This document shows, in pieces, positions 1 through 59,800 of a stretch of DNA of 64,000 bases (its first letter is position 1; every line of letters starts with the position of its first letter). This DNA comes from the human T2T-CHM13v2.0 reference genome, Homo sapiens. The notes beneath the pieces are model-generated. The model made no database searches and was not told the DNA's origin. It worked only from the letters and a program-made list of their open reading frames with translations. The stretch lies in NCBI RefSeq assembly GCF_009914755.1, contig NC_060943.1; one strand, 5' to 3'. Both the position numbers and the translations under genes were made by a program.

Positions 1-1215
1 CCCCTCCCTCCCTTTATCTCTCTCTCCCTCTCTCCATCTCTCTGTCTCTCATTCTGTCTCCCTCCCTCCCTCCATCTCTCCCTCCCTCCCTCCCTCCCTC
101 CCTCTCTCCATCTCTCCTTCCCTCTCTCCCTCCCTCTCTCCATCTCTCTCTCCCTCTTTCCATCTCTCTTTCCATCTCTCTCTCTCCATTTCTCCATCTC
201 TCTCTCCATCACTCTCTCTCCATTTCTCCATCTCTCTCTCCATCACTCTCTCATTCTCTCTCCCCCTTCTCCCTCCCTCCTTTCATCTCTCTCTCCCCTT
301 CCCTCCCTCCCTCTCTCTCCCCCTCCCTCTCTTTATCTCTCTCTCCCTCTCTCCATCTCCCTCTCTTTCTCTCTCCCTCCCTCCCTCCATCTCTCTCTAC
401 CTCTTTCCATCTCTCTCTCCATCTCTGTCTCATCTCTCTCCATCTCTCCATCTCTCCATTTCTCCATCTATCTCTCCATCTCTCTATCTCCATCTCTCTC
501 TTCATCTCTCTCTCCATCTCTCTATCTGCCTCTGCATCTCTCCATCTATCTCCGTCTCTCTCTTCTTCTCTCTCTCCATCTCTCCATCTCTCTCTCCATC
601 TCTCCATCTCTCTATCTCCGTCTCTGTCTTCATCTCTCCATCTCTCTCCATCTCTGTCAATCTCTCTCTCCATCTCTCTCCATCTCTCTCTCATTCTCTT
701 TCCCCCTTCTCCCTCCCTCCTTTCATCTCTCTCTCCCCTTCCCTCCCTCCCTCTCTCTTCCCCTCCCTCCCTTTATCTCTCTCTCCCTCTCTCCATCTCT
801 CTGTCTCTCATTCTGTCTCCCTCCCTCCCTCCATCTCTCCCTCCCTCCCTCCCTCCCTCCCTCTCTCCATCTCTCCTTCCCTCTCTCCCTCCCTCTCTCC
901 ATCTCTCTCTCCCTCTTTCCATCTCTCTTTCCATCTCTCTCTCTCCATTTCTCCATCTCTCTCTCCATCACTCTCTCTCCATTTCTCCATCTCTCTCTCC
1001 ATCACTCTCTCATTCTCTCTCCCCCTTCTCCCTCCCTCCTTTCATCTCTCTCTCCCCTTCCCTCCCTCCCTCTCTCCCCCTTCCTCCCTTTATCTCTGTC
1101 TCTCCCTCTCTGTCATTCTCTCTCCCTCCCTCTCTCCATCTCTCTCTCTCCCTCTCTCCATCTCTCTCTCCATCTCTCCATCTCTCCCTCTATCTCCCTG
1201 TCTCCATCTCTCCAT

Positions 1216-1262
<47 letters not shown>
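1..1262. repeat. CT-rich complex tandem repeat ((TCTCCA)n/(CCCT)n/(TC)n) with a 759-bp-offset internal duplication
   Basis: Near-pure pyrimidine sequence; 1-316 recurs at 760-1075 (identical ORFs 49..246 and 808..1005). Confidence 0.95.
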
Positions 1263-1265
<3 letters not shown>

Positions 1266-4309: not shown

Positions 4310-4345
<36 letters not shown>

Positions 4346-4467
4346 CCTGTGACAGCCTCGCCGGGCTGTGGGTGGTCACTTAGTTGAGAGTGGCCTGGTG
4401 TGTCTCACATTAACGCATCCCAAGCCCTCCTGCCTCTCTCTCTTCTCTCTTCTCTCCTCTCTCTCTG

Positions 4468-4507
<40 letters not shown>

Positions 4508-4587
4508 TCGTCTATGCTCTCCAGCTCCCAGTGTCCCCGGCACCCTCCTCCGACTCCCCAGAGAAAAGCTGCTTGTGTGACGGCATC

Positions 4588-4653
4588 ATGGAAGCCGGGT
4601 GCCCGGACCTGCCTCCCAGGCGGCCGGCCCAGCCCGCACTCCGGTCCCCATAA
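4588..4653 (+). other. Upstream ORF (21 aa, MEAGCPDLPPRRPAQPALRSP*) in the putative exon-1a leader
   Basis: atcATGg (A at -3, G at +4) to TAA at 4651-4653, ending 35 nt before the exon-1a ATG and in a different frame. Confidence 0.55.
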
Positions 4654-4688
4654 GGCGATTCGGGGCCGCCCTCGCCGTCCGCCCCAGC

Positions 4689-4784
4689 ATGGAGGTGCCC
4701 GGGCCCCCCGTGTCCAGCAAGCCGGGAGAGACCTCGGTCAAATGGCAACTGTGCTACGACACGACGGCTAAAATGTGGTGGATG
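4689..4784 (+). CDS. NFIC: NFIC distal alternative first coding exon (1a), 32 aa MEVPGPPVSSKPGETSVKWQLCYDTTAKMWWM
   Basis: ATG in strong Kozak context (agcATGg), 32 open codons, phase-0 donor ATG|GTGAGT at 4785. Gap-free similarity to the recalled long NFIA N-terminus MKLADSVMAGKASDGSIKWQLCYDISARTWWM (14/32 identical). Same strand as, and upstream of, the NFIC exons; lies in a CpG-rich patch. Confidence 0.85.
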
Positions 4785-6004
4785 GTGAGTGGAGCGGGGC
4801 CCGCCGTGGCCCGGGGCCGGGGGCAGGAGGGGGCGGCCGGCCGAGGAGGCTTCTCCAGCCAGGCGTGGTTGGGGGGCGGCGGTGACCCCCCCACTGGGGA
4901 GCTGTGAAGTCGGGGAAGGTGGTCAGAGGTGGTGAAACCGAGCCCAGATCATGGAGAGCAGAATAATTCTTGCATCTTCCACCTGGAGACGAGTCCGCGG
5001 CTGCCCAGGCACCGCTAAGGGCCCGAAAGTGCCTGTTTCTGTGGCCCACGAGGGCACCAGGGTGGCCGTTCCCTTGGACGGTTTTGCAGAGGATCAGTGG
5101 TCCTGGAGATGCTTGTGCTGGGCCCAGGGCCTGTGATGGGATGTTCTGAGGGTGGGGAGGTCTCAGCGGGCTGGGGAGTGTGAGGCCCAGGGACTGGGCT
5201 GCTGTGTGACCCCGGCCAAGCCCTCGCCTGCCTCTGTGCCCTGTGGTCCCAGAAAACGGGGTGGACACCCTCCTCGCTCTGGCTGGATGATGGCCAAGGG
5301 CCGAGGGAAGGTGAGGTGGGGCTGTCGCCTGCTTTGGCCCAGAGGAGGACTATGGCATCACCCCTAAGATTGGGCACCCTTCCGGAAGCTTCCAGTGGTG
5401 GTGGTGGGGGGTGGTTAAGGCCACGTCCCTTGAAACTGGGACCCACCGGATGGGGTAAGAAGCAATTCCGGGGCAGCTCTGTGTGTAAGACAGGGCACAG
5501 TTATGGAGCCTGGCTGGGGGCCATTGTCCACGGCCCTTGGGGTCCGCGCGAGACCGTCACTCTGTCCGCCTCTCAGTCCGTCGGTCCATCCAGCTGTCTG
5601 GGAGCTGGCCGGTGATCCATGGGGAACTTGAAAACCCGTCAACACAGTTCTGCATCATGCAGATGTGTGTTTCAACCTGGGCTTACTGTGTGACCTTGGG
5701 ACAGTGGCTCACCCTCTCTGGCCCGCAGGTTCTCCCATCAGGGAAATGATGAGCGGCCTAGACTTCTCGGGTTTCATGGCAGGTGCTCTGTGGGTCGCCA
5801 AGGAAAGTTGGGCCTCGAGGTGGGACATGGCACCTCATGACCTGCTGTGACCTCTCATAGCTGCTGTCTCTGGGGTGTGTCTGCTTCAGGTGGGGTCAGA
5901 GCCTCTGGGGTCATTTCCTTAGTCTCTGAGCACCAAAGTCTTGGGGTTTACAAGGACAGAGAGACCTTTCCCACAGCCCTGGGGAGTGTCCTGCATTGGT
6001 TTCA

Positions 6005-9769: not shown

Positions 9770-10220
9770 GAGTGCCTATTACGAGTCCGCGGTGAACCAG
9801 AGAGACCCAGCCCTGCCCTTCCTGGGCTCCTGGCCCGGCATGGAGAACAGTAAAAGAGAAAATGAATAATGCATGAGATAATTTTAAATTGAGAGGAGGA
9901 CGGTGAAGAAATTAGAAGAGGCAGCCAGTGGGCCGGGAAGGTGACGTTGCGGCCTGAGCCATCTCAAGGGACCTAAAGTCTTGGTGGGGGCAGAGGGCAT
10001 GGCCCGTGCAAAGGCCCCGAGGCAGGACTGGGCTGGTGCGTTAGAGGAATGGCCAGGAGGCCCATGTGGCTGGAGCAGAGTGAGGAGGGAGAGAGAGGGA
10101 GAAGGGGAGGGTAGGGAGGGGATGGGCAGGTTGTGCAGGGCACTGTGGCCTCCGGGGTGGATGTGGTGTTTGGGACCAGAAACCCTAGGGAGCCATGGAG
10201 GGTTGTGGGCAGAGAGGGCC
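9770..10220 (-). mobile_element. L2-derived repeat, copy B
   Basis: GCAAAGGCCCCGAGGCAGGAC...GGAGCCATGGAGGG block. Confidence 0.7.
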
Positions 10221-12189
10221 TCCCCCATCCACTGAGTGGTTCCCTGTGCCCATCCGTGAGTGCCACCCGCCACCTCCCCCTCTGTGTGCCCGGCGCTGGT
10301 GGGGGGCCTCGAGATGCTTCGTCTCCCCAGCCCCCTGGCCCGCGCCCGCCCGGCCGCCGCCCACTCTGCCCACATCTGAGGCGCCTAGGAGCCGGACAGT
10401 CTGCCGCAAACCACGGAATGTTTCCCGGAGCGCCGGGCCGGGAATGTCGGCGGTGAGGAGGGGAAGGGTGGGGAGACCCAGAGAGATGGGCCGGGGCGGT
10501 GGGCACCGCCACGCGAGGGACGCAGAATCATTGTCACCCTCAACCCCAGAGAGGGGCCACCACGATGCCGCCGCTTTACAGATGGGGAAACTGAGGCACG
10601 GAGTGGCGAAGCGACTTTCTATGTCCACAGGGCTTGGGAGAGGCAGCGCTGGGATTCGAACCCAGACTTCCTGGCCACAGACCTCAGGGGCTTGCCCACT
10701 AACCCACAGCAAAGAGGTCAGCGGGAACTCAGTGAATGAATAAATGAATGAATGAATGGGTTTTGTAAGTGAGTGAATGAAGGCTCATTCACTCCGCCCA
10801 GCCAGGCCTCCCACCCCAGCCACAGACCAAGCAGAACATGCTGAAACACACCAGCCCCCATCCTCCAGTTCCCACCACTCCCACTACCATCTGGAAGTCC
10901 CTCCTTGTATCCGACCTAGGTCTTTCCTCACTCTTTTCTTCTCCAGGGCAGATAAATGGCAAGGCGTTCACACCCTCCCCTGCAAGCCGCTGAGTCTGTC
11001 CCTCCAGGAGAAGGGCAGAGCCCAGCCACTGCTCACCCTGGAAGTCACTGGGGAAGGGACAGTTGAGGCTCAGAGAGGGGCAGTACTTTCCCCAAGGTCA
11101 CACAGCAAATTCTTGTAACGTCAGAGCCCTGAACGATTCCTGAGATGACGCCCAATTAGAGTCATGGCCGGCTGAGCCTCCCATGTTGTATCTCCTTCAA
11201 TCCTCCCAACAAGTCGATAGGGAAGGAACCATTATTATCACCATTTTATAGATGGGGAAACTGAGGCTTGGCAAGGGGCAGCCGCTGCAGGAGGTGGCCG
11301 GGAAGCGACCAGGGTAATGTGGCCACTCTCTGGATCAGCTGAGCAGAGGGACCAACTTGTTACTCTGCCACCTGTGATGGGGGTGATATGAAGCCATGGC
11401 TGCCAGGGGTCATATCACCCAGGTGTCGTGTGTCTACCCCAGCCACACGCTAAGTCCTCATAGCTGCCTGGCCACGTGGTTTCGCCCACCTTTGCAGCTG
11501 GTGGCTTTGCAAGGTTCCATGAAACCCCTAGCAGGGCGGAGGCACCTTGTCCTTTGATAGAAACCCACTGGGCAGGGAGAAGCCACTGGCTAGGGGCTCC
11601 CTGGAGATGGTGACATTTGAGCCAGGCCCAGAGGGATGCTAAAGCTTTCAACACAAGAAGGTAGCAGGGAGGGCATTCCTGGCAGAAGGAACTGCTCAGA
11701 CAAAGGTGTGGTGGTGCGAATGTGCCCCCGTGTGACAGAGCTAAAATGGGGCCTGAGGCGGGGGCAGGTAAGAGAGACATGTAAAGCCAGGCTGTGATGG
11801 GTGGGTCTCAAATGCGAGGCTGCGGAGGTGGGGCTTTCTCTCCAGGGTAATGGGGAGCCATGGGAGGTGTCTGAGCGAACAGGACCAGAGGGACAGATGG
11901 GAGAGAGGATCTAAGGGGAGAGTGAGCAGATGTTGGGATGGACAGACTATGGGGAGCCAGGAGGAGGGAGAAGATGGGGCTGATGCCAGAGATCCCTACC
12001 TCAGGGATGGGGAGTGATGGTGGAATTGTCCCTGACATGGGGACATGGAAGGAGGAGGGGGTTTGAGGAAGACGCTGAGTCTGGAGACCTTGAGGAAAGT
12101 CCTGGAAGAAGCTGAATAAGGGAGAGAGATCGCTGGAGTCTAAGATAATGACTAGAACATCTGTGATCAGTAACTGCTTGTGAATTGGA

Positions 12190-13090
12190 TGGAGGGAGGG
12201 AGGGAGGAGTCGATAGGTGGGTGGGTTGATGGGTGGACAGATGGATGAGTGGATGGCTAGATGAGGGGATAGATGGGTGGGCAGGTGGGTGGGTGGATGG
12301 ATAGATGAGTAGAGTGATGGATGGATGGATGGATGGATGGATGGGAGGGAGGTGGATGGATGGATGGATTGATAAGTGGTTGGATGGTTGGATGGATGGA
12401 TGAGTGGATGGATGGATGAGTGGATGAGTGGATGGATGAGTGGAGAGATGAATCAATGGCTGGATGGATGGACGGATGGATGGATGAATGGGCAAACGGA
12501 TGGGTAGGTGGATGGTTGCATGGATGAATGGATGGATGAATGCATGGATGGATGGGTGGGTGGATGGATGGATGGATGGATGGATGGATGGATGGGTGGA
12601 TGAATGGAAGGATGGTTGAGTGTATGGCTGAGTGAGTGAATGGATGAGTGGAGAGATGAATGGATGGGCTGATGGATGGATGCAGGCATGGGTGGATGGA
12701 CAGACGAATGGGCAAATGGATGGGTACATGGATGCATGGATGAACGAATGCATGGATGGATGGGTGGATGGATGGATGAGTAGAGGGATGGATGGGTGGA
12801 TGGGTGAATGGATGGGAAGGTGGATGGATAGATGGATAAAGGGATGAAGGGAGTGGTGGATAGATGGATGGATGGATGGATGGATGAATAGAGGGAAGGA
12901 TGGGTGAATGGATGGGAAGGTGGATGGATAGATGGACAAAGGGATGAAGGGAGTGGTGGACAGATGGATGGATGGATGGATAGAGGGATGGATGGGTGGA
13001 TGGATGAATGGATGGGAAGGTGGATAGATAGATGGATAAAGGGCTGAAGGGAGTGGTTGATAGATGGATGGATGGTTGGTTGGCTGCATG
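12190..13090. repeat. (GGAT)n degenerate tetranucleotide repeat
   Basis: ~900 bp of ggat/gggt/gaat units. Confidence 0.95.
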
Positions 13091-14479
13091 TGTGGGTGGA
13101 TCAATGGGTAGGTGGAGCCTGAAGACAGAAGTGGCTGCCCTGAGTGTGAAGGCAAAGGCACAGCCCTGGGAAGCCCCCACATCAGGGCCAGGAAGAGGAG
13201 ATTTGGGGAGGAAGCAGGAACTGTGCCAGTTGCCCCTGTAACTGCCTCTCTGTGAGGCCTCCCCACCCAAGTCCTTTCCTCTACCCCTCTTCCCCAGAAA
13301 TGGCTTTGGGACTTGAAATCCCCGCCCCCCGCCCCACACCCCACCACACACACACACATGGCTCAGCTCTGGGGGGCCTACCGCAGACAAATCAGTGGAA
13401 AATTAAAATAGTGCCTGTGCACTGGTGATCGGCGGCTTCAGCCGGGCACTTAATGATCCCTTTCTGGGGATTGTTACCAGCTGGAGGTGGCGGGGGGGTG
13501 GGGGGTCTTCACCAGCCACCCAATCTGAGCAGTAGGGGGTGGTCCCTGGGAGAGGGGGTGCAGCCCACAAAGCCAGAAGTTGGCAGTGATGGCAAAGCTG
13601 GGAAGGGCTTAGGCAGGGAAAGGGATGACCTTGAGCTCCGGGGATGAACCCACTTGGACCCCTGCACCCCTGTGGCCCCTGCTGGGACGTCCTTTCTCTC
13701 TCAGTTTGGCTAGATGGCTCCAGCTCATCTTGTAGTTCTCAGGTCCAATGTCACCACCTCCAGGAAGCCCTCCTGGACTAGGTCAAATCCCCTCAGAAGT
13801 ATCTAACCATCCTTATCTATAATCCTATTTGCCTGGAGGCCTTGAGAGCAAAACCTCACTTTGCCACATTAGCTGTGTGTCCTTGGGGAAGTCACTTTCC
13901 CCCTCTGTGGCTTGTTTTCCTCATTTGTAAAATAAGGCTGTTAGGAGAATTTTTTTTCTTTTTTAGAGACAGGATGTGACTCTGTCATCCAGGCTGGAGT
14001 GCGGTGGCACGATCACAGTTCACTGCAGCCTCAAATTCCCTGGGTTCAAGCGATCCTCCCACCTCAGCCTCCCAAGTAGCTGAGACTACAAGTGTATGCC
14101 ACCATGCTTGGCTAATTTTTTAGTAGAGATGGGAGGTCTCAGTATGTTGCCCAGGCTGGTCTCGAACTCCTGACCTCAAGTGATCCTCCCGCCTCGGCCT
14201 CCCAAAGGGCGGAATTACAGGCATGAGCCATCTCGCTGGGCCCCTGTTGGGAGGATTAAATGAACAATTGTGGGTAAACTGGTATTTACTGAGCCTTTAT
14301 TATGTACTGGGCACAGGGTTGAATCTGGTCCTCAAATTCTCAAAATAAGCCAATCAATGCCAGCAAGATGTTCATCCCCATTTTAGGGAGAGAGTCACTG
14401 AGGCCCCTAGGAATGAGATAAATTCACTTAATACCGTCACTGTGTGCCCGGACCAGTTCAGTTCCCTCTGCTCTCACCC

Positions 14480-22056: not shown

Positions 22057-27370
<5,314 letters not shown>

Positions 27371-49610: not shown

Positions 49611-50599
49611 GCTCCCGACCATCACCACTTCTCAGCTCCGTGACCTCAGGCAAGTGTCTAAACCTCTCTGAGATTCAGTTTCCTCATCTGTGAAATGGGC
49701 TCGATGGTAATAGCAGCCACTTCAGAGGGCTGCGGTGAGGGGTGAGTAGCTTCATGTCAAGCACTTCACGCAATGCCAGGCAGTTGCAGGGTTCGTAGGG
49801 AAAGTAATGGGTGAGAGGCGCTACACCAGTGCTCCACTGTCTCTACGCCCCTCATTACTTCCTGGCTGCTATCAACCCATCCCTCCCCTCCCCTCCTCAC
49901 CCCCAGGTACCTAATTCCCCGAGGCAGGGGAGCGGGTGAGGATTCAAGCTGCGGATTAGCAGAGGCCGATTAGAGACGGGTGGGAGGGGGGAGGGGGGGG
50001 GTCTCTAACCCACTAACCCTTCCCTTGCCGGTCCTGCCTCAGGTTTGCGGGAGGGGTGGGGGCCTGCAAAACCTCGGTGCCTGCCACACCCTTGGAGAAA
50101 GCATTAGTGTCCCTGCTGGTTGACCCCAGGTTGACCCCTCTCTGGGCCTCATTGGTTCCTTCTGAACTATGGGGCGAAGACTGCAGAAATGAAATGGGAA
50201 AGCCTCAGCGTCTGAAGATGAGGGCACAGGGTAAATGCCTCAGGGCTGGCTGAGACATCCTTCGCGTAGACAACACTTACTGAGCACCTACCATGTGGGC
50301 AGAGCTGCTGGCATCAACGTCGCCTAGAACTGCTCAGCTCCCAGAGTGCCAGACTCAACTTCCAGAACCCCCAGACTCAGCCATCGCTCCGAAGGGGCGC
50401 TCCGGGAACTGATTCTCCTCCCGGGGTGCCACCTGCTCTCACCCTCACCCTGGCGTCCTCCCTGGGGGAGCAGGGAACCACTCCTCCAAAGGGGTCCCTG
50501 AAATCCTGGATCCTCAGTGTGTGTGGAGGGGGGTGGAACTGGGGAAAGACAGAAGGACCATAGCAGAACCCCTTTCACCCGTCAGGTCGGAGCAACACT

Positions 50600-53500
50600 C
50601 CCCCCACACCCCCTGCAACCTCCCCCAGCTGCGCCAGACGCAGAGCCGGTGGGGGCGAGGGGGCGGCGCCTACTCTGCGGCTGTCAGAGGAGGGGGACTG
50701 CGGGAGAGCGCTTGGGGGGGCGCTGCGGCAGCCGGTCCCAACCCGCAGCGGCTCGCGCGGCAGGGGCGGGGGCGCTGACCCACCTCGGCCCGGCCCCTCC
50801 TCCGCTGCGGAGGCCTCGCCATTAATCCTGACCGGGGGAGGGGGCGCCCGCTGCCCCCCACTTCCTACGGGGGCCGCTGCGAGCGCTCCCCCGCCGCCCC
50901 CTGCCTGGAGCCCCTGCGGGACCCCCAGGGGACCCCCGCCCCAGGTCTGTCGCCCTCGGTGTCGGAGTCTCTGTCTGTGTCCCCGTCTGTCCCGTCTCCC
51001 TGCTGTGCGTGTGTGTAGCCGCGTGTCCCCCGGACACCTGCAGTCACCGGCCAGGGCTGCTCGGGGAGGGGTCCCGGGGGTCGGCGCGTGAGTCCCTCTG
51101 AGGTCTGGGTGTCTTTCTGGGACTGTGCGTCTGTGAGATCTCGGGGTGCCAGCCCCACAGGCTGCGAGTGTGCGTCTGTGTTGACCTCCTGCAGAAGGTG
51201 TGTGTCCCAGATGCCCCACCGGCTTCGAGCATGGGTCCCCGTGTGCCCGGCGGACACCCACGGGCCGTGTGTCCGTCACACGCTGTAGGCGCCGCGCGTG
51301 GGGATCTCTGCGCGTGTCCGTGTGCGGTGTGTGTGTGTCCGTGGCTGAGTCGAGGAGGCCCGGCCCGCCGGTGTCCCCGAGTCGCCTGCGCGTGAGTGTG
51401 TGTGTGCGCGTGTGTGTGCGCGCGCGCCGCGGCGAAGGTGGATCCGCTCGCTCCGCAGCGAGCCCAGCCGGGGCCCCGCGACCTGCAGCCGCCGCCGCCA
51501 CCGCCTCCGCCGCTCCCCGGGCCTCCCCTTGCGCGGGCCGGGCCGGGGATGGAGCCGCAGCCGGAGCCGCCGCAGCCGGGGCCGCGGCGCGGAGCAGCCT
51601 GAGGCGCGGGCGGTGCGCGGGACCGGGGGGAGGGCGGGCCGAGGGGAGGGTCCTGCGGGCCGGGGGGGCGGGCGCGGCGCGCCCCCTCCCTGGCGCGCTC
51701 GCTCCCTCCCCCGCGCGCCCTCCCTCGCCGCCTCCTCCCGCCGCCTGCGGCCCCCCCCTCGCCGGGGACCGAGCGCGCTCGCTCCGGCGCCGGCCTCGCC
51801 TCCTCGCAGCAGCGCCATGGTACGTCGCCGCACCCACTTTCGTTTTCGCCCGGGGACTTTTTGGGGTGGTGCGTGGGCTCCGGGCGAAAGTTGCAAGATC
51901 TGGGGGGACAGGGGGCGGGGGCCGCCCGGAGGAGGGGCTCGAGGCGGGGACCCCCACTCGCCAGTCGCCACGGGACCCCTACCCACGATCCCCCCCCGCA
52001 CCCCGGCTGGGGGCGGAGCTGGCGCGCGGGGCGCCGCGGGAGACCCCAAGTGGGGGGCCCCTCGCGGGCGCCGCGAGTTGGCGAGGAGGGCGGGGCTCCC
52101 CGGAGAAGGCCCCCGCAACCCCAGGCCGGGCCCCCGCCCCCTCCCCGGGCCAGACCCCAGGCGGGAGGGCGCGGCCCTGGGCGCACGACCCCCGAGCGCG
52201 CAGTCCGTGGGGGAGCCCGGGCCAGGGAGGGGGCGCACGGCGGGACGGCGCGTGGGGCGGGGGTCGCGGCGGCCCCCGCGGGGTGCCCCGGCCCGGGCGA
52301 GCGCGGCGCGCCAGCTAGCGGAAAATGGCCGCTGCGGAGAGGGGCGGAGAGCGCGCCGCGGCCGCCGCCGGGCGCCTTGAACTTGGAGCCGGGCGGGCGG
52401 CCGCGCTCGGCGCCGCGCAGGAGCAGCCGCCCCGCCTGCCCTCGCACCGCCCCCGCCCCGCCCCTCGGCAGACCCCCGGCCCCGCTGCCGCGCGCGCGGG
52501 GTCCCCAGCTGGGAGGGAACCCCGGGTCTCGGCCCGGCGCGCCCCAGGCCCTGGAGCGGCGGTGGCTGCACTTGGGGTTCCGGTGTCCGGTCGACTGGCG
52601 TCGGTGTCGTGCGCACCTCGAGGGGTGCGTGGGAGCCCCTGCGCTCCGTAACGGGCCGGCATTGGCATCTGGGGGAGCGTCTGGGGTGTGCGCGGCGGGG
52701 TGGTAGTGTACCTGCCTTGGGGCCGCGGGTCCCGGCGCGTCGGCTCCGCCGCTTTCTGTGTCCGCGTGTGTCTGCACATCCACGTGCTGGCGCGTGTTGT
52801 GTTGTGAGCGCCGCCCGCATTGTGCGGCTGCGGGACACTTGTGTCTTTGGATAACTGGGCGACTGTGCGCGCGTCCCTGCGGGACGGTGTTGTGAAACTA
52901 TGGCTGGGCTGCGTGTCCGCGGAGCCGCGTGTCCCTGGGTGACCGTGGGGTGTCCCCGTGTGGGTGTGTGGCGGTTGGGGGGGGTCGCCAGGGAGTGGAG
53001 AACTGTCGAGTGGCCGCGTTCCAGGGGACAGTTGGGTGCCGCTTGCTGTGTGCGAGTGACTGGCGCTGAGCCTCCCCCTAGGGAAGGGTCTGCCTTCCAC
53101 TCCCGGCCTCGCCTCCCCCAGTTCCTTTTTTCCTGTAACTGGGGACTGCCTGGGCGGCGGAGGAAGAGCGCTCCCTCCACCTTTTCAAAACTCTGTCCCT
53201 TTATCTTTCCCCTACGTCCCCTCCACTTCCCCCAGCCTTCGGGGTCCCCCATCCGCTTGGCCCGAGGGGGTCCTGGCTGGAGGTTCGGGCGCGAGGTGGC
53301 GCCGGGACGCGATCACTCGGCACGCAGACGTCGCTCGCCAGGGGTTGCGCTTGCGCGGGGACCTGCCCCGAGAGGGGCGGGGCGGCAGGGGTTCCCCCTC
53401 CCTGAGAGGCCGTGGAAGTCCCGAGGGGTGGGTGGTTACAGCAGCACAGGGGTTAGGACGGGCCCGGGAGGTGGCTAAGGAGACCCCTATTATCCTATGC
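50600..53500. promoter_or_regulatory. CpG island / promoter of NFIC exon 1b
   Basis: Very high GC and CpG density, many GC boxes, Alu-free, surrounds the ATG|GT exon. Confidence 0.92.
51817..51819 (+). CDS. NFIC: NFIC alternative first exon (1b), contributing only the initiator Met (M|DEFHPF...)
   Basis: gcgccATG|GTACGT: Kozak ATG followed immediately by a donor, in the centre of a large CpG island. Matches the known NFI isoforms that begin MDEFHPF. Confidence 0.85.
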
Positions 53501-53959
53501 TGGGGAGAGCGTAGGGGCACCGGGACTGGTCCCGCAGTCCCGCCTCCAGCACTTGCCCCCAATGGACCAGAGGCCGTGGGCACAGAGAGCTGTTTTGTCA
53601 CCTCCAGGGAAATCCCCGCCGCTCCCCACCCCCACCCCACCCCCAGTGCGTTTGATATAATTTTCTAAATATAAAAAGCCCAAGGCCAGGCTGGTCTCTC
53701 TCGCTTTCTTCTTGACATCCCATCATGGGGGGCTGTTTGGGATGTCAAGAAGGAGAGAAAACCCTCCCACAATGACACAGAGGCCTCCCCCAACAACACT
53801 CAAGGTCATTCTCGGGTTGTCACCATCCCTCACACCCACTCCCAGCCTCAGACTCACAGCTATCTCCCTCCGCACTCCCGGAGGGACGGTTGGATGCCCT
53901 GGCCTTCAGCACACGGCATGGCCCTCTGTCCCCATTTTGGGTTCTGTGCACAGTGGGAC

Positions 53960-58099: not shown

Positions 58100-59800
58100 G
58101 GTCGTACATCTTTAAGGGGAAAGAGGCGCGCTGGCCGGCCTCTGCGCACGTCACTTCTTCATTCCTTCCCTCCCCCCTGGCTCTTTCCTCCAACTTCCCG
58201 GCCAGCTCGGGGGTGATGGGGGGGTGGGGAGGGGGGGCCTTAAAAATCCACCCCTGGCCCCTCAATGTCCAGAAACAACCCTGTCCCCCCTCTCCGCTTG
58301 ATCCGAATTGGGGTCGCCCTGCAGTCCTGGGGTCCTGGTCTAGTGCCCTGGGGCATTGCGTAAATACGGGAGGAGCGGGGGGGTCCTGAGACGTCGGGGG
58401 AGGCTCTCCTTTCTCGCTCGCGCCCTTTTTTCCCTCGTTTCTTTGAAAGTTGGGTGTTGAGAAGTGGGAGGTTCGGGGTGGGAGGGGGAGGGTGTCAGAG
58501 GGTAGAGAGAGAGACAGAGAGACAGAGACGGGGGAGAGAGGAAGAGAGAGACGGAGGGAGAGAGGGACAGAGAGCGAGGCGGGCGGCGCGAGAGAGGGAG
58601 AGCAGGAGGGAGGAGGAGGGAGACCGAGGGAGGAGGCGGCGAGGAGAGCGCGCCGGCCGCGGGGCGGGGGGGGGGGTTTGGGGGGGGCGGGGGGGTGGTT
58701 TGGAAAAATGACTCAGTAAGTTCAGCGCGCCCGCTCCGGCCGGCCCTGCGCCTCCCGCCGCGCCCGGGATGTATTCGTCCCCGCTCTGCCTCACCCAGGT
58801 ACGGTCCTCGCCCGGCCCCCCGCCGGCGCCCCCGCGCCCCCCGCATCCCAGCCCCGGAGTTTTGAAGCAGGAGGAGGCGGGACGAAAAAGGCGCGCGTCC
58901 CTCCCGCCATCCCTGCCCGGGATGCCCCCCGCGCCGAGGGCTGGGGTCCGGTGGGGGGATGGGTCAGGCTGGGGTACCCCCCCCACACCCTTACCTACCG
59001 CGGACCCCCTACGCGGGACTCCCGCCCAGCACCCCCAACCCCGACTCTCGGGACCTCTCCCGGATGTGGGGCTTGGTCTGCAGATTTGCGTCCCCCCCCA
59101 CACACACCGACGCACTCCGCACCCCCGCCCCGACACTCGGAAAGGTCGGGGTGGGGGCTGGCCCCCCTCCAGCAAGGGCTCTGCGGGAAGCCCCCCGCCT
59201 GCCTCTGAGAGGAATCTAGGGGGTCGTGATTGGACCCTGGGTCTCCCCAGCTGGAGAGAAAGGGACCTCTCATGTGTTTTCCCCGTGTCCCCCCACCAAG
59301 GTTGTGCGGGCCGCCCTGGCCCTCGGTCGCCTTTCCCTCGTTATTGGCCCACGTGTGCATGGAGGGGGAGGGGGCAGGAGAAGTTGGAGGCCCAGGAGGG
59401 GGAAGGGTGCTCCGGCGGCCCGGCTGGGTCCCCCCTCCTTTGCAAGCCCCCCAGCACCGTCCCGGTATTTTCGCTGCATCGATTCTGGATTCTGGATTCT
59501 GGATTCTGGAGCCGCCGCCGGGAGGAGCGGGAGGCCCGGCGCTCCGGGTCTGGCCCGGGCACTGCGGCGCTGCGGACGCCCTCGCCAGCCCGGCACCTGC
59601 CCCGTCCCCTCCCCCTCCCCCTCCCCCTCCCGTAGCCTCTCACCCCTGGCCGCACTCCCAGACTGCCCCGGGGCCGAGCCTTGTGCAATGGCCGAGGGGG
59701 TGTGTGGGGAGGGGGCGGCTCCCCCCGGGGACTCCTTCCAGCCCAGGCTCCCGGGGACCCCGAGGTCTGCAAGTTCCGTTTTCTAGACCGCTGCTTTCCT
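58100..59800. promoter_or_regulatory. CpG island / promoter of NFIC exon 1c
   Basis: CpG-dense; GA-rich tract 58495-58650, G-runs 58661-58695, TGACTCA 58709-58715 and Inr-like CTCAGT just upstream of the [13 protein letters not shown]. Confidence 0.9.
58769..58798 (+). CDS. NFIC: NFIC canonical first coding exon (1c), [10 protein letters not shown]
   Basis: ATG TAT TCG TCC CCG CTC TGC CTC ACC CAG|GTACGG. The peptide is the recognised N-terminus of human NFIC/CTF; phase-0 donor at 58799. Confidence 0.97.

What the first reader, a model, noticed from the sequence alone, without database searches (positions are those of the whole stretch)
4689..4790. Distal NFIC first exon encoding an NFIA-paralogous 32-aa N-terminal extension
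Seen: a strong-Kozak ATG, 32 codons (MEVPGPPVSSKPGETSVKWQLCYDTTAKMWWM) and a phase-0 GTGAGT donor, ~47 kb upstream of the main NFIC promoter. Knowledge (recalled): the long mouse NFIA isoform starts MKLADSVMAGKASDGSIKWQLCYDISARTWWM|DEFHPF. It has the same length, needs no gaps, and shares 14/32 residues including KWQLCYD and WWM. Inference: the exon predates the vertebrate NFI duplications and gives NFIC a little-studied isoform with a conserved Trp/Cys-rich motif just before the DNA-binding domain, which could be a protein-interaction or autoregulatory module. The ORF track hides it inside a 102-aa ORF. It may already be annotated in GENCODE, but it is not one of the classical CTF isoforms.
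Basis: partly seen in the sequence, partly recalled or inferred. Interest (0 to 1): 0.82.

Follow-up and report, generated by a model that had tools for sequence, protein, structure and literature searches.

The report
Ancient alternative first exon upstream of NFIC
About 47 kb upstream of the annotated NFIC gene lies an intact 32-codon exon, a diverged copy of the distal first coding exon of its sister genes NFIA and NFIB, so it is very probably an old, little-studied alternative start of NFIC rather than a new kind of element.

Summary
ATG 4689, 32 codons to 4784, and GTGAGT at 4785-4790 are all present.

A six-frame search of the whole human reference finds only three such sequences. One is this one. 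One lies on chr9 at the 5' end of the RefSeq NFIB gene. One lies on chr1, 212 kb upstream of the RefSeq NFIA gene.

All three are 96-nt ORFs running from an ATG to ...WWM, each followed at once by a GTRAGT donor in phase 0. They share 14 invariant residues. In the KWQLCYD core the differences are synonymous. Similarity stops at the donor. NFIX has no copy.

In 89 public protein records from fish to mammals, the NFIA or NFIB version is joined directly to DEFHPF, the start of exon 2. NFIC exon 2 also starts with DEFHPF in phase 0.

Use in NFIC itself is not shown. RefSeq lacks the exon. No named protein of 59-490 aa carries the NFIC version. None of 22 NFIC-type records has it. I could reach no transcript data.

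Verdict: a real, ancient paralogous exon, probably a rarely used alternative NFIC first exon. It is a new member of a known kind, of modest interest.

The parts
4689..4784 (+). Coding part of the distal exon: ATG plus 31 codons, MEVPGPPVSSKPGETSVKWQLCYDTTAKMWWM
   Evidence: sequence and translation; only three such sequences in the genome; 14 invariant residues shared with the NFIA and NFIB copies; differences in the core are mostly at third codon positions.
4785..4790 (+). 5' splice donor GTGAGT in phase 0
   Evidence: The same position carries GTAAGT in the NFIB copy and GTGAGT in the NFIA copy. Nucleotide similarity to NFIA ends at this hexamer (aligned block 1550-1602 of the 3-kb loci).
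4686..4692 (+). Start-codon context AgcATGG (A at -3, G at +4)
   Evidence: No in-frame ATG upstream within the open frame.
4401..5100 (.). Weak CpG-rich stretch centred on the exon (GC up to 0.71, CpG observed/expected up to 0.71); possible promoter
   Evidence: It is much weaker than the annotated NFIC promoter island at 50501-53700 (GC up to 0.85, o/e up to 1.05). No transcription-start data were available.
4588..4653 (+). Out-of-frame 21-codon upstream ORF (ATG 4588, stop 4651-4653). It matters only if transcription starts upstream of 4588
   Evidence: it is part of the ORF 4531..4653.
51764..51819 (+). Annotated NFIC first exon (codes for M only); context
   Evidence: RefSeq rows in the finding.
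58715..58798 (+). Annotated NFIC first exon with 10 codons, used by the MANE-select transcript; context
   Evidence: RefSeq rows in the finding. The shared exon 2 (chr19:3359841-3360372, begins DEFHPF, phase 0) lies outside the window.

Best explanation
This is a genuine, ancient alternative 5' coding exon of NFIC. It is the NFIC copy of a distal 32-codon exon that was already present in the single NFI gene before the vertebrate genome duplications. NFIA, NFIB and NFIC keep it; human NFIX does not.

Inferred mechanism: transcription from a weak CpG-rich promoter around 4400-4700 gives an mRNA in which the donor at 4784/4785 is spliced across a 69-kb intron, which contains the two annotated NFIC promoters, to the common exon 2. 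This would replace the usual 1- or 10-residue N-terminus by 32 residues placed directly before DEFHPF, the start of the DNA-binding domain.

Shown: the sequence features, the paralogy, the coding-type conservation, the frame compatibility, and direct joining to DEFHPF in NFIA and NFIB proteins.

Inferred: that NFIC transcripts actually do this, in which tissues, and what the extension does. My best guess for the function is a conserved aromatic and Cys-containing segment that modulates the adjacent N-terminal 'antenna' of the DNA-binding domain or recruits a partner.
For: (1): intact ATG with good context, 32 codons, consensus donor.

(2): genome-wide, only three matches. The other two lie upstream of NFIB and NFIA, on the strand of those genes. 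The RefSeq NFIB gene range begins 35 nt upstream of the chr9 ATG.

(3): all three are 96-nt ORFs followed by GTRAGT. There are 14 invariant residues: M1, K11, S16, K18, W19, Q20, L21, C22, Y23, D24, A27, W30, W31, M32.

(4): in codons 16-32, NFIA versus NFIB differ at 0/0/8 first/second/third codon positions, and NFIC versus NFIA at 2/3/6. Ungapped identity in the 60 nt upstream and downstream of the NFIC coding part is only 13-22%, against 78% (to NFIA) and 71% (to NFIB) in the last 51 coding nt.

(5): blastn of the 3-kb loci aligns NFIC to NFIA over only 53 nt (codons 17-32 plus the donor; 83%, E 2e-10).

(6): 89 of 209 stored public proteins carry the extension directly before DEFHPF. They come from fish, reptiles, birds and mammals and include a cluster of 304 members.

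(7): NFIC exon 2 begins with DEFHPF in phase 0 behind a good acceptor.

(8): the order distal exon, then proximal short first exon(s), then exon 2 is the same in NFIA (RefSeq gene start 10.9 kb before exon 2) and NFIC. For NFIB only the distal exon and exon 2 were placed; I could not see its proximal first exon. Distal exon to exon 2 is 223 kb in NFIA, 224 kb in NFIB and 69 kb in NFIC.

(9): a local CpG-rich peak sits on the exon.

(10) Passages of the review PMC13637464 state that additional alternative promoters with alternate first exons have been found for all four mammalian NFI genes.
Against: No transcript or protein evidence for NFIC was obtained.

RefSeq RS_2025_08 lists no gene, transcript or functional element between window position 1 and 51386.

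One search used words from an NFIA-type extension plus DEFHPFIE and could see proteins of 154-490 aa. It returned 92 proteins, all with NFIA- or NFIB-type extensions. One search used the NFIC extension itself and could see 59-189 aa. No named protein shared three 5-residue words; 30 candidates of unnamed source were withheld.

None of 22 NFIC-type records among the stored proteins has the extension; these came from the 120 listed of 377 hits. Proteins longer than 490 aa, where a full-length NFIC with the extension would fall, were never examined.

The first 15 codons are strongly diverged from NFIA and NFIB (2-3 identities). The CpG stretch is weak. A pyrimidine run ending in AG just before the ATG would also allow use as an internal exon.
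Confidence: 0.68

Rival explanations
1. It is a relic. The exon was functional in the NFIC ancestor for most of vertebrate history, is no longer used in humans (promoter silenced), and simply has not yet decayed.
For: It is absent from RefSeq. No NFIC-type extension appears in any named protein of 59-490 aa, nor in any of 22 NFIC-type records. The N-terminal half is diverged. The CpG stretch is only weak. NFIX shows that the exon can be lost.
Against: The start codon, frame, core motif and consensus donor are all intact. The 51-nt core differs from NFIA at only 11 positions, 6 of them third codon positions. The flanks have lost all similarity, which leaves little room for a long neutral phase. 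CpG dinucleotides inside the exon are retained.
Confidence: 0.2
2. The exon is transcribed and spliced, but mainly as part of non-productive or regulatory RNAs: an upstream non-coding transcript, or an internal exon of a longer 5' UTR whose ATG is pre-empted by upstream ORFs. Little or no extended NFIC protein would be made.
For: If transcription starts upstream of 4588, an out-of-frame 21-codon uORF precedes the ATG, and a second ATG at 4514 opens the long overlapping frame of ORF 4400..4771. A pyrimidine run plus AG directly before the ATG could act as an acceptor. No protein record was found.
Against: Conservation is of the coding type and stops at the donor. The NFIA and NFIB copies are annotated as coding in many species. 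The ATG context is good.
Confidence: 0.1
3. It is a chance ORF in GC-rich DNA that happens to resemble NFIA.
For: Short ORFs are common in GC-rich DNA. Nineteen ORFs of at least 20 aa overlap 4400-5100.
Against: There are only three matches genome-wide at E below 1e-18 with the profile, and the next is E 3.2. All three lie upstream of NFI genes on the strand of those genes, with identical length and donor phase.
Confidence: 0.01

Closest known systems
Distal first coding exon of NFIA (chr1:60744133-60744228 in T2T), encoding MKLADSVMAGKASDGSIKWQLCYDISARTWWM
   Same: It has 32 codons from ATG to WWM and a GTGAGT donor in phase 0. It lies far upstream on the strand of the gene and is joined directly to DEFHPF in protein records. 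Fourteen of 32 residues are identical to the NFIC exon.
   Different: Residues 16-32 hardly vary in the 84 full-length extensions examined from fish to mammals (eight of those positions were fixed by my selection pattern). The NFIC copy differs at 5 of these 17 positions and at almost all of positions 2-15. The NFIA exon is 223 kb from exon 2, against 69 kb. NFIA shares about 100 nt of conserved sequence upstream of the ATG with NFIB, which NFIC lacks. Like the NFIC exon, it lies outside the RefSeq gene range in this annotation.
Distal first coding exon of NFIB (chr9:14541614-14541709, minus strand), encoding MKVADSIMAGKTSDSSIKWQLCYDMSARTWWM
   Same: Same length, donor phase (GTAAGT) and position relative to the gene. 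Fifteen of 32 residues are identical to NFIC.
   Different: It is annotated: the RefSeq NFIB gene range begins 35 nt upstream of its ATG. The NFIC exon has no RefSeq annotation.
Annotated NFIC first exons (window 51764-51819 and 58715-58798)
   Same: They are alternative first exons spliced in phase 0 to the same exon 2.
   Different: They encode 1 and 10 residues, sit in strong CpG islands and are unrelated in sequence to the 32-residue extension.

Membership tests
NFI distal 'KWQLCYD...WWM' alternative first exon (as in NFIA and NFIB) | ORF of 32 codons from ATG to ...WWM | tested here: met
NFI distal 'KWQLCYD...WWM' alternative first exon (as in NFIA and NFIB) | GTRAGT donor immediately after the WWM codons, phase 0 | tested here: met
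NFI distal 'KWQLCYD...WWM' alternative first exon (as in NFIA and NFIB) | Core S-[IV]-K-W-Q-L-C-Y-D-x-x-A-[RK]-x-W-W-M conserved, with synonymous-type differences | tested here: met
   14 invariant columns; codon-position counts; table of 84 extensions. The pattern is my own summary of those calls.
NFI distal 'KWQLCYD...WWM' alternative first exon (as in NFIA and NFIB) | Lies upstream of, and on the same strand as, an NFI gene, distal to the short proximal first exon(s) | tested here: met
   No other annotated gene lies between it and NFIC.
NFI distal 'KWQLCYD...WWM' alternative first exon (as in NFIA and NFIB) | Spliced directly to exon 2 (DEFHPF...) in transcripts or protein records | tested here: inconclusive
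   Met for NFIA and NFIB types: 89 of 209 stored proteins. For NFIC the frame fits, but no record was found in 59-490 aa (0 of 22 NFIC-type records).
NFI distal 'KWQLCYD...WWM' alternative first exon (as in NFIA and NFIB) | Orthologous exon conserved in other vertebrates | not testable with these tools
   No vertebrate genomes other than this reference were available. The NFIA type is conserved from fish to mammals.
CpG-island promoter | GC at least 0.55 and CpG o/e at least 0.6 over several hundred nt | tested here: met
   4401-5100 meets it. It is marginal next to 50501-53700.
CpG-island promoter | Mapped transcription start (CAGE, 5' ends of cDNAs) | not testable with these tools
   No expression data. 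RefSeq lists no functional element here.
Pfam NFI DNA-binding domain (PF10524 + PF03165) | Match to the domain models | tested here: not met
   the open frame around the exon matches no Pfam family. In an NFIA protein with the extension, PF10524 begins at residue 33, just after the extension. The extension is therefore an appendage, not part of the domain.

The most novel reading that the evidence does not exclude
The 32-residue extension is a distinct functional module of the NFI family that predates the vertebrate genome duplications and that nobody has characterised. No searchable paper prints its core motif. None of the nine solved NFI DNA-binding-domain sequences contains it. It sits directly before the NFI-specific alpha-loop-alpha 'antenna' that helps form the DNA-binding cleft (passages of PMC12630593). 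Its invariant Trp, Cys and Tyr cluster could gate DNA binding, for example by autoinhibition or redox sensing, or recruit a specific partner. Distal-promoter isoforms of NFIA, NFIB and NFIC would then share a mode of regulation that NFIX lacks.
Probability: 0.3. Interest if true: 0.55.

Novelty: new member of a known kind. Interest (0 to 1): 0.35.

Why it matters
NFI factors are major developmental regulators, and their N-termini adjoin the DNA-binding domain. A third paralogue carrying the same ancient distal exon shows that this extension has been kept for hundreds of millions of years, so it probably has a function. Yet the solved structures matched all begin at or after exon 2. The constructs described in the three structural papers I read in passages begin at residue 13 or 14 of the short isoforms.

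For NFIC the practical points are these. The gene's 5' boundary may lie about 47 kb further upstream than RefSeq shows. The 47 kb treated as intergenic would then be intronic. An extra protein isoform may also exist. This is an annotation and isoform point of modest weight, not a new principle.

Tried and rejected
Protein database. One search (NFIC exon 2 as query, candidates 97-310 aa) listed 120 of 377 hits. Three of the 120 had an NFIA-type extension and none an NFIC-type one. One search (P0045, residues 1-40; 154-490 aa) gave 92 hits, all NFIA or NFIB type. One search (the 108-aa open frame, residues 37-76; 59-189 aa) gave no named candidate, and 30 unnamed ones were withheld. All three searches are now used, so proteins above 490 aa were never examined.

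NFIX. The profile search of the genome found no fourth copy. RefSeq NFIX first exons are all short and unrelated. Matches in closed regions are not shown, so absence is not absolute.

Structure. AlphaFold2 on P0073 with a 54-row alignment was poor: mean pLDDT 47.9, and 26-30 over the extension. It says nothing about the extension, so I did not run fold search on it or spend the second job.

Atlas search of the 32-mer returned only short bacterial hypothetical and transposase-like clusters at 0.85-0.92. I treat this as noise.

Papers.
- 'WQLCYD' anywhere in a word: 0 papers.
- 'NFIC' + 'alternative first exon': 3 papers, 2 listed, irrelevant by title and abstract.
- 'NFIC' + 'alternative promoter' + 'isoform' + 'N-terminal': 4 papers. 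I read passages of three: PMC13637464, PMC13513291 and PMC4263293. Only the first bears on the question, and only in one general sentence.
- NFIA, distal promoter and first exon terms, and passages of PMC10719113: nothing relevant.
- 'NFIB' + 'NM_001190737': clinical papers, listing only, not used.
- '3314403' + 'NFIC': 0 papers.
- One search was a broad listing only.

Recalled, not tested: I remember the Ensembl/GeneCards NFIC gene range starting about 45 kb upstream of the RefSeq start. That would fit this exon, so GENCODE may already hold a transcript from here. No call supports this.

Rejected: the chance-ORF reading. Also rejected: the CpG observed/expected value of 1.8 at 22701-24700, which is an artefact of a (CCTT)n array.

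Full report
1. Observation.

The window has an ATG at 4689 in the context cccAgcATGG. Thirty-two codons follow (MEVPGPPVSSKPGETSVKWQLCYDTTAKMWWM), ending at 4784, and then GTGAGT at 4785-4790. The ORF list shows it inside a 102-aa ORF, 4599..4907. The open frame has no earlier in-frame ATG. The first RefSeq NFIC exon starts at 51764, which is 47,075 nt downstream. RefSeq lists no gene, transcript or functional element between window position 1 and 51386. The stretch is not a masked repeat.

2. Is it more than chance?

A six-frame search of the whole T2T genome with the 32-mer gave three places. They are the exon itself, chr9:14541614-14541697 (minus strand, E 3.0e-4) and chr1:60744151-60744228 (plus strand, E 9.1e-4). 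A profile of the three scores them at E 1.3e-19 to 2.4e-19. The next best place in the genome scores E 3.2.

The chr9 place is the 5' end of NFIB. The RefSeq NFIB range ends at 14541744, 35 nt upstream of the ATG at 14541709. The chr1 place lies 211.8 kb upstream of the RefSeq NFIA start, on the NFIA strand.

Reading the loci shows that all three are 96-nt ORFs from an ATG to ...WWM, each followed at once by GTGAGT or GTAAGT. There are 14 invariant residues, with 14 of 32 identities to NFIA and 15 of 32 to NFIB.

3. Coding-type conservation.

In the KWQLCYD core the three genes differ only at synonymous third positions. Differences by first, second and third codon position over codons 16-32:
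- NFIA versus NFIB: 0/0/8.
- NFIC versus NFIA: 2/3/6 (4 synonymous and 5 replacement codon differences).

The last 51 coding nt of NFIC are 78% identical to NFIA and 71% to NFIB. The 60 nt upstream of the ATG and the 60 nt beyond the donor are only 13-22% identical.

blastn of the 3-kb loci aligns NFIC with NFIA over just 53 nt, which are codons 17-32 plus the donor (83%, E 2e-10). NFIA and NFIB align over 205 nt, including about 100 nt upstream of the ATG. Similarity that survives only inside the frame and stops at the splice donor is what a protein-coding exon under long purifying selection looks like. Codons 2-15 of NFIC are almost entirely diverged and rich in Pro and Gly.

4. What the paralogous exons do.

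With NFIC exon 2 as query, 3 of the 120 listed proteins (of 377 hits) carried an NFIA-type extension. A search with residues 1-40 of one of them returned 92 proteins. Among all 209 stored proteins, 89 have the extension directly before DEFHPF. By DNA-binding-domain identity to the four human exon 2 translations, 86 are NFIA type and 3 are NFIB type.

They come from teleosts, gar, turtle, alligator, birds, rat and a 304-member mammalian cluster. In the 84 full-length extensions, positions 16-32 hardly vary. One caveat applies: eight of these positions were fixed by the pattern I used to select the 84.

So in NFIA and NFIB this exon is a first coding exon spliced directly to exon 2.

5. Fit to NFIC.

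NFIC exon 2 (chr19:3359841-3360372) begins with DEFHPF in phase 0 behind a pyrimidine-rich acceptor. Both annotated first exons join it in phase 0. Splicing 4784 to exon 2 would therefore give an in-frame protein with the same junction as in NFIA and NFIB.

The gene layout is parallel. The distance from the distal exon to exon 2 is 69 kb in NFIC, 223 kb in NFIA and 224 kb in NFIB, and the short annotated first exons of NFIA and NFIC lie in between. I could not see the proximal first exon of NFIB.

The exon sits on a local CpG-rich peak at 4401-5100 (GC up to 0.71, o/e up to 0.71). This is much weaker than the main NFIC island at 50501-53700 (0.85 and 1.05).

6. What argues against current use, or is missing.

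RefSeq does not annotate the exon. The same annotation also leaves the NFIA copy outside its gene range, so this omission carries little weight.

No named protein of 154-490 aa or 59-189 aa has an NFIC-type extension. In one search, 30 candidates of unnamed source were withheld. None of 22 NFIC-type and none of 22 NFIX-type stored records has an extension. A full-length human NFIC with the extension would be longer than 490 aa, outside what I could search.

I had no RNA, CAGE or other vertebrate genomes. If transcription starts upstream of 4588, an out-of-frame uORF precedes the ATG. A pyrimidine run ending in AG directly before the ATG would also allow use as an internal exon.

7. Origin.

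The human genome has no fourth copy, and the RefSeq NFIX first exons are unrelated. Presence in three of four paralogues, with the same length and phase, is most simply explained by one exon in the pre-duplication NFI gene that was later lost in NFIX. This is an inference. Invertebrate and jawless-vertebrate genes were not examined. One arachnid record has an unrelated N-terminus.

8. Function.

The extension matches no Pfam family. In an NFIA protein with the extension, PF10524 begins at residue 33, immediately after it. All nine solved NFI DNA-binding-domain sequences in the PDB begin at or after DEFHPF.

Passages of three structural papers show that constructs start at residue 13 or 14 of the short isoforms. 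They also show that an NFI-specific alpha-loop-alpha 'antenna' at the N-terminus of the domain helps form the DNA-binding cleft (PMC12630593; PMC12721326; PMC12830966).

The extension would be attached directly to that antenna. A role in tuning DNA binding or in partner recruitment is therefore plausible but untested. My AlphaFold2 run was too poor to use (mean pLDDT 47.9).

9. What is known.

Passages of a 2025 review of the family (PMC13637464) say that additional alternative promoters with alternate first exons have been found for all four mammalian NFI genes since 2000, without details. No searchable paper prints the core motif.

From memory only, Ensembl places the NFIC gene start about 45 kb upstream of RefSeq's, which would fit this exon. 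I could not check this (one search found nothing).

10. Verdict.

Its use as an NFIC first exon is probable (about 0.7) but not demonstrated. It is a new member of a known kind, and possibly already in GENCODE. Interest is modest, at 0.35. The more interesting open point is the unstudied, deeply conserved extension shared by three NFI paralogues.

Noticed in passing
L004:1400-1500 and L005 (minus strand) 1597-1697; chr1:60744032-60744132 and the matching chr9 stretch: NFIA and NFIB keep about 100 nt of conserved sequence (80% over 205 nt in total) directly upstream of the ATG of their distal exons, so the 5' UTR or core promoter is conserved between ancient paralogues. NFIC has nothing similar there. 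NFIA has an in-frame 12-codon uORF in this stretch, which in NFIB is cut to 3 codons.
   Followed up: partly
human genome, NFIX locus chr19:13120686-13150768: NFIX has no copy of the 32-codon exon. Its most distal RefSeq first exon encodes 9 residues, 29 kb before exon 2, and only about 21 kb separate NFIX from the upstream gene DAND5.
   Followed up: partly
window 4312-4343 and 4436-4510: A (CA)n and a long (CT)n-type microsatellite lie 180-380 nt upstream of the ATG, inside the putative promoter or 5' UTR of the distal exon.
   Followed up: no
window 2-1265: A 1.26-kb pyrimidine-only tandem array (units CCCTCTCT and related, GC skew about -0.95) lies at the start of the window.
   Followed up: no
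window 22093-25112: A 3-kb (CCTT)n array of about 743 copies. It produces a spurious CpG observed/expected value of 1.8.
   Followed up: partly
window 12186-13101: A (TGGA)n array of about 0.9 kb.
   Followed up: no
window 10201-10800: A second weak CpG-rich stretch (GC 0.70, o/e 0.70) with no annotation. Its ORFs look like GC-rich noise.
   Followed up: partly
(protein search with window 4581-4904, residues 37-76): Thirty candidate proteins of 59-189 aa from unnamed sources were left out before scoring. Some may carry the NFIC-type extension, but they could not be seen.
   Followed up: no
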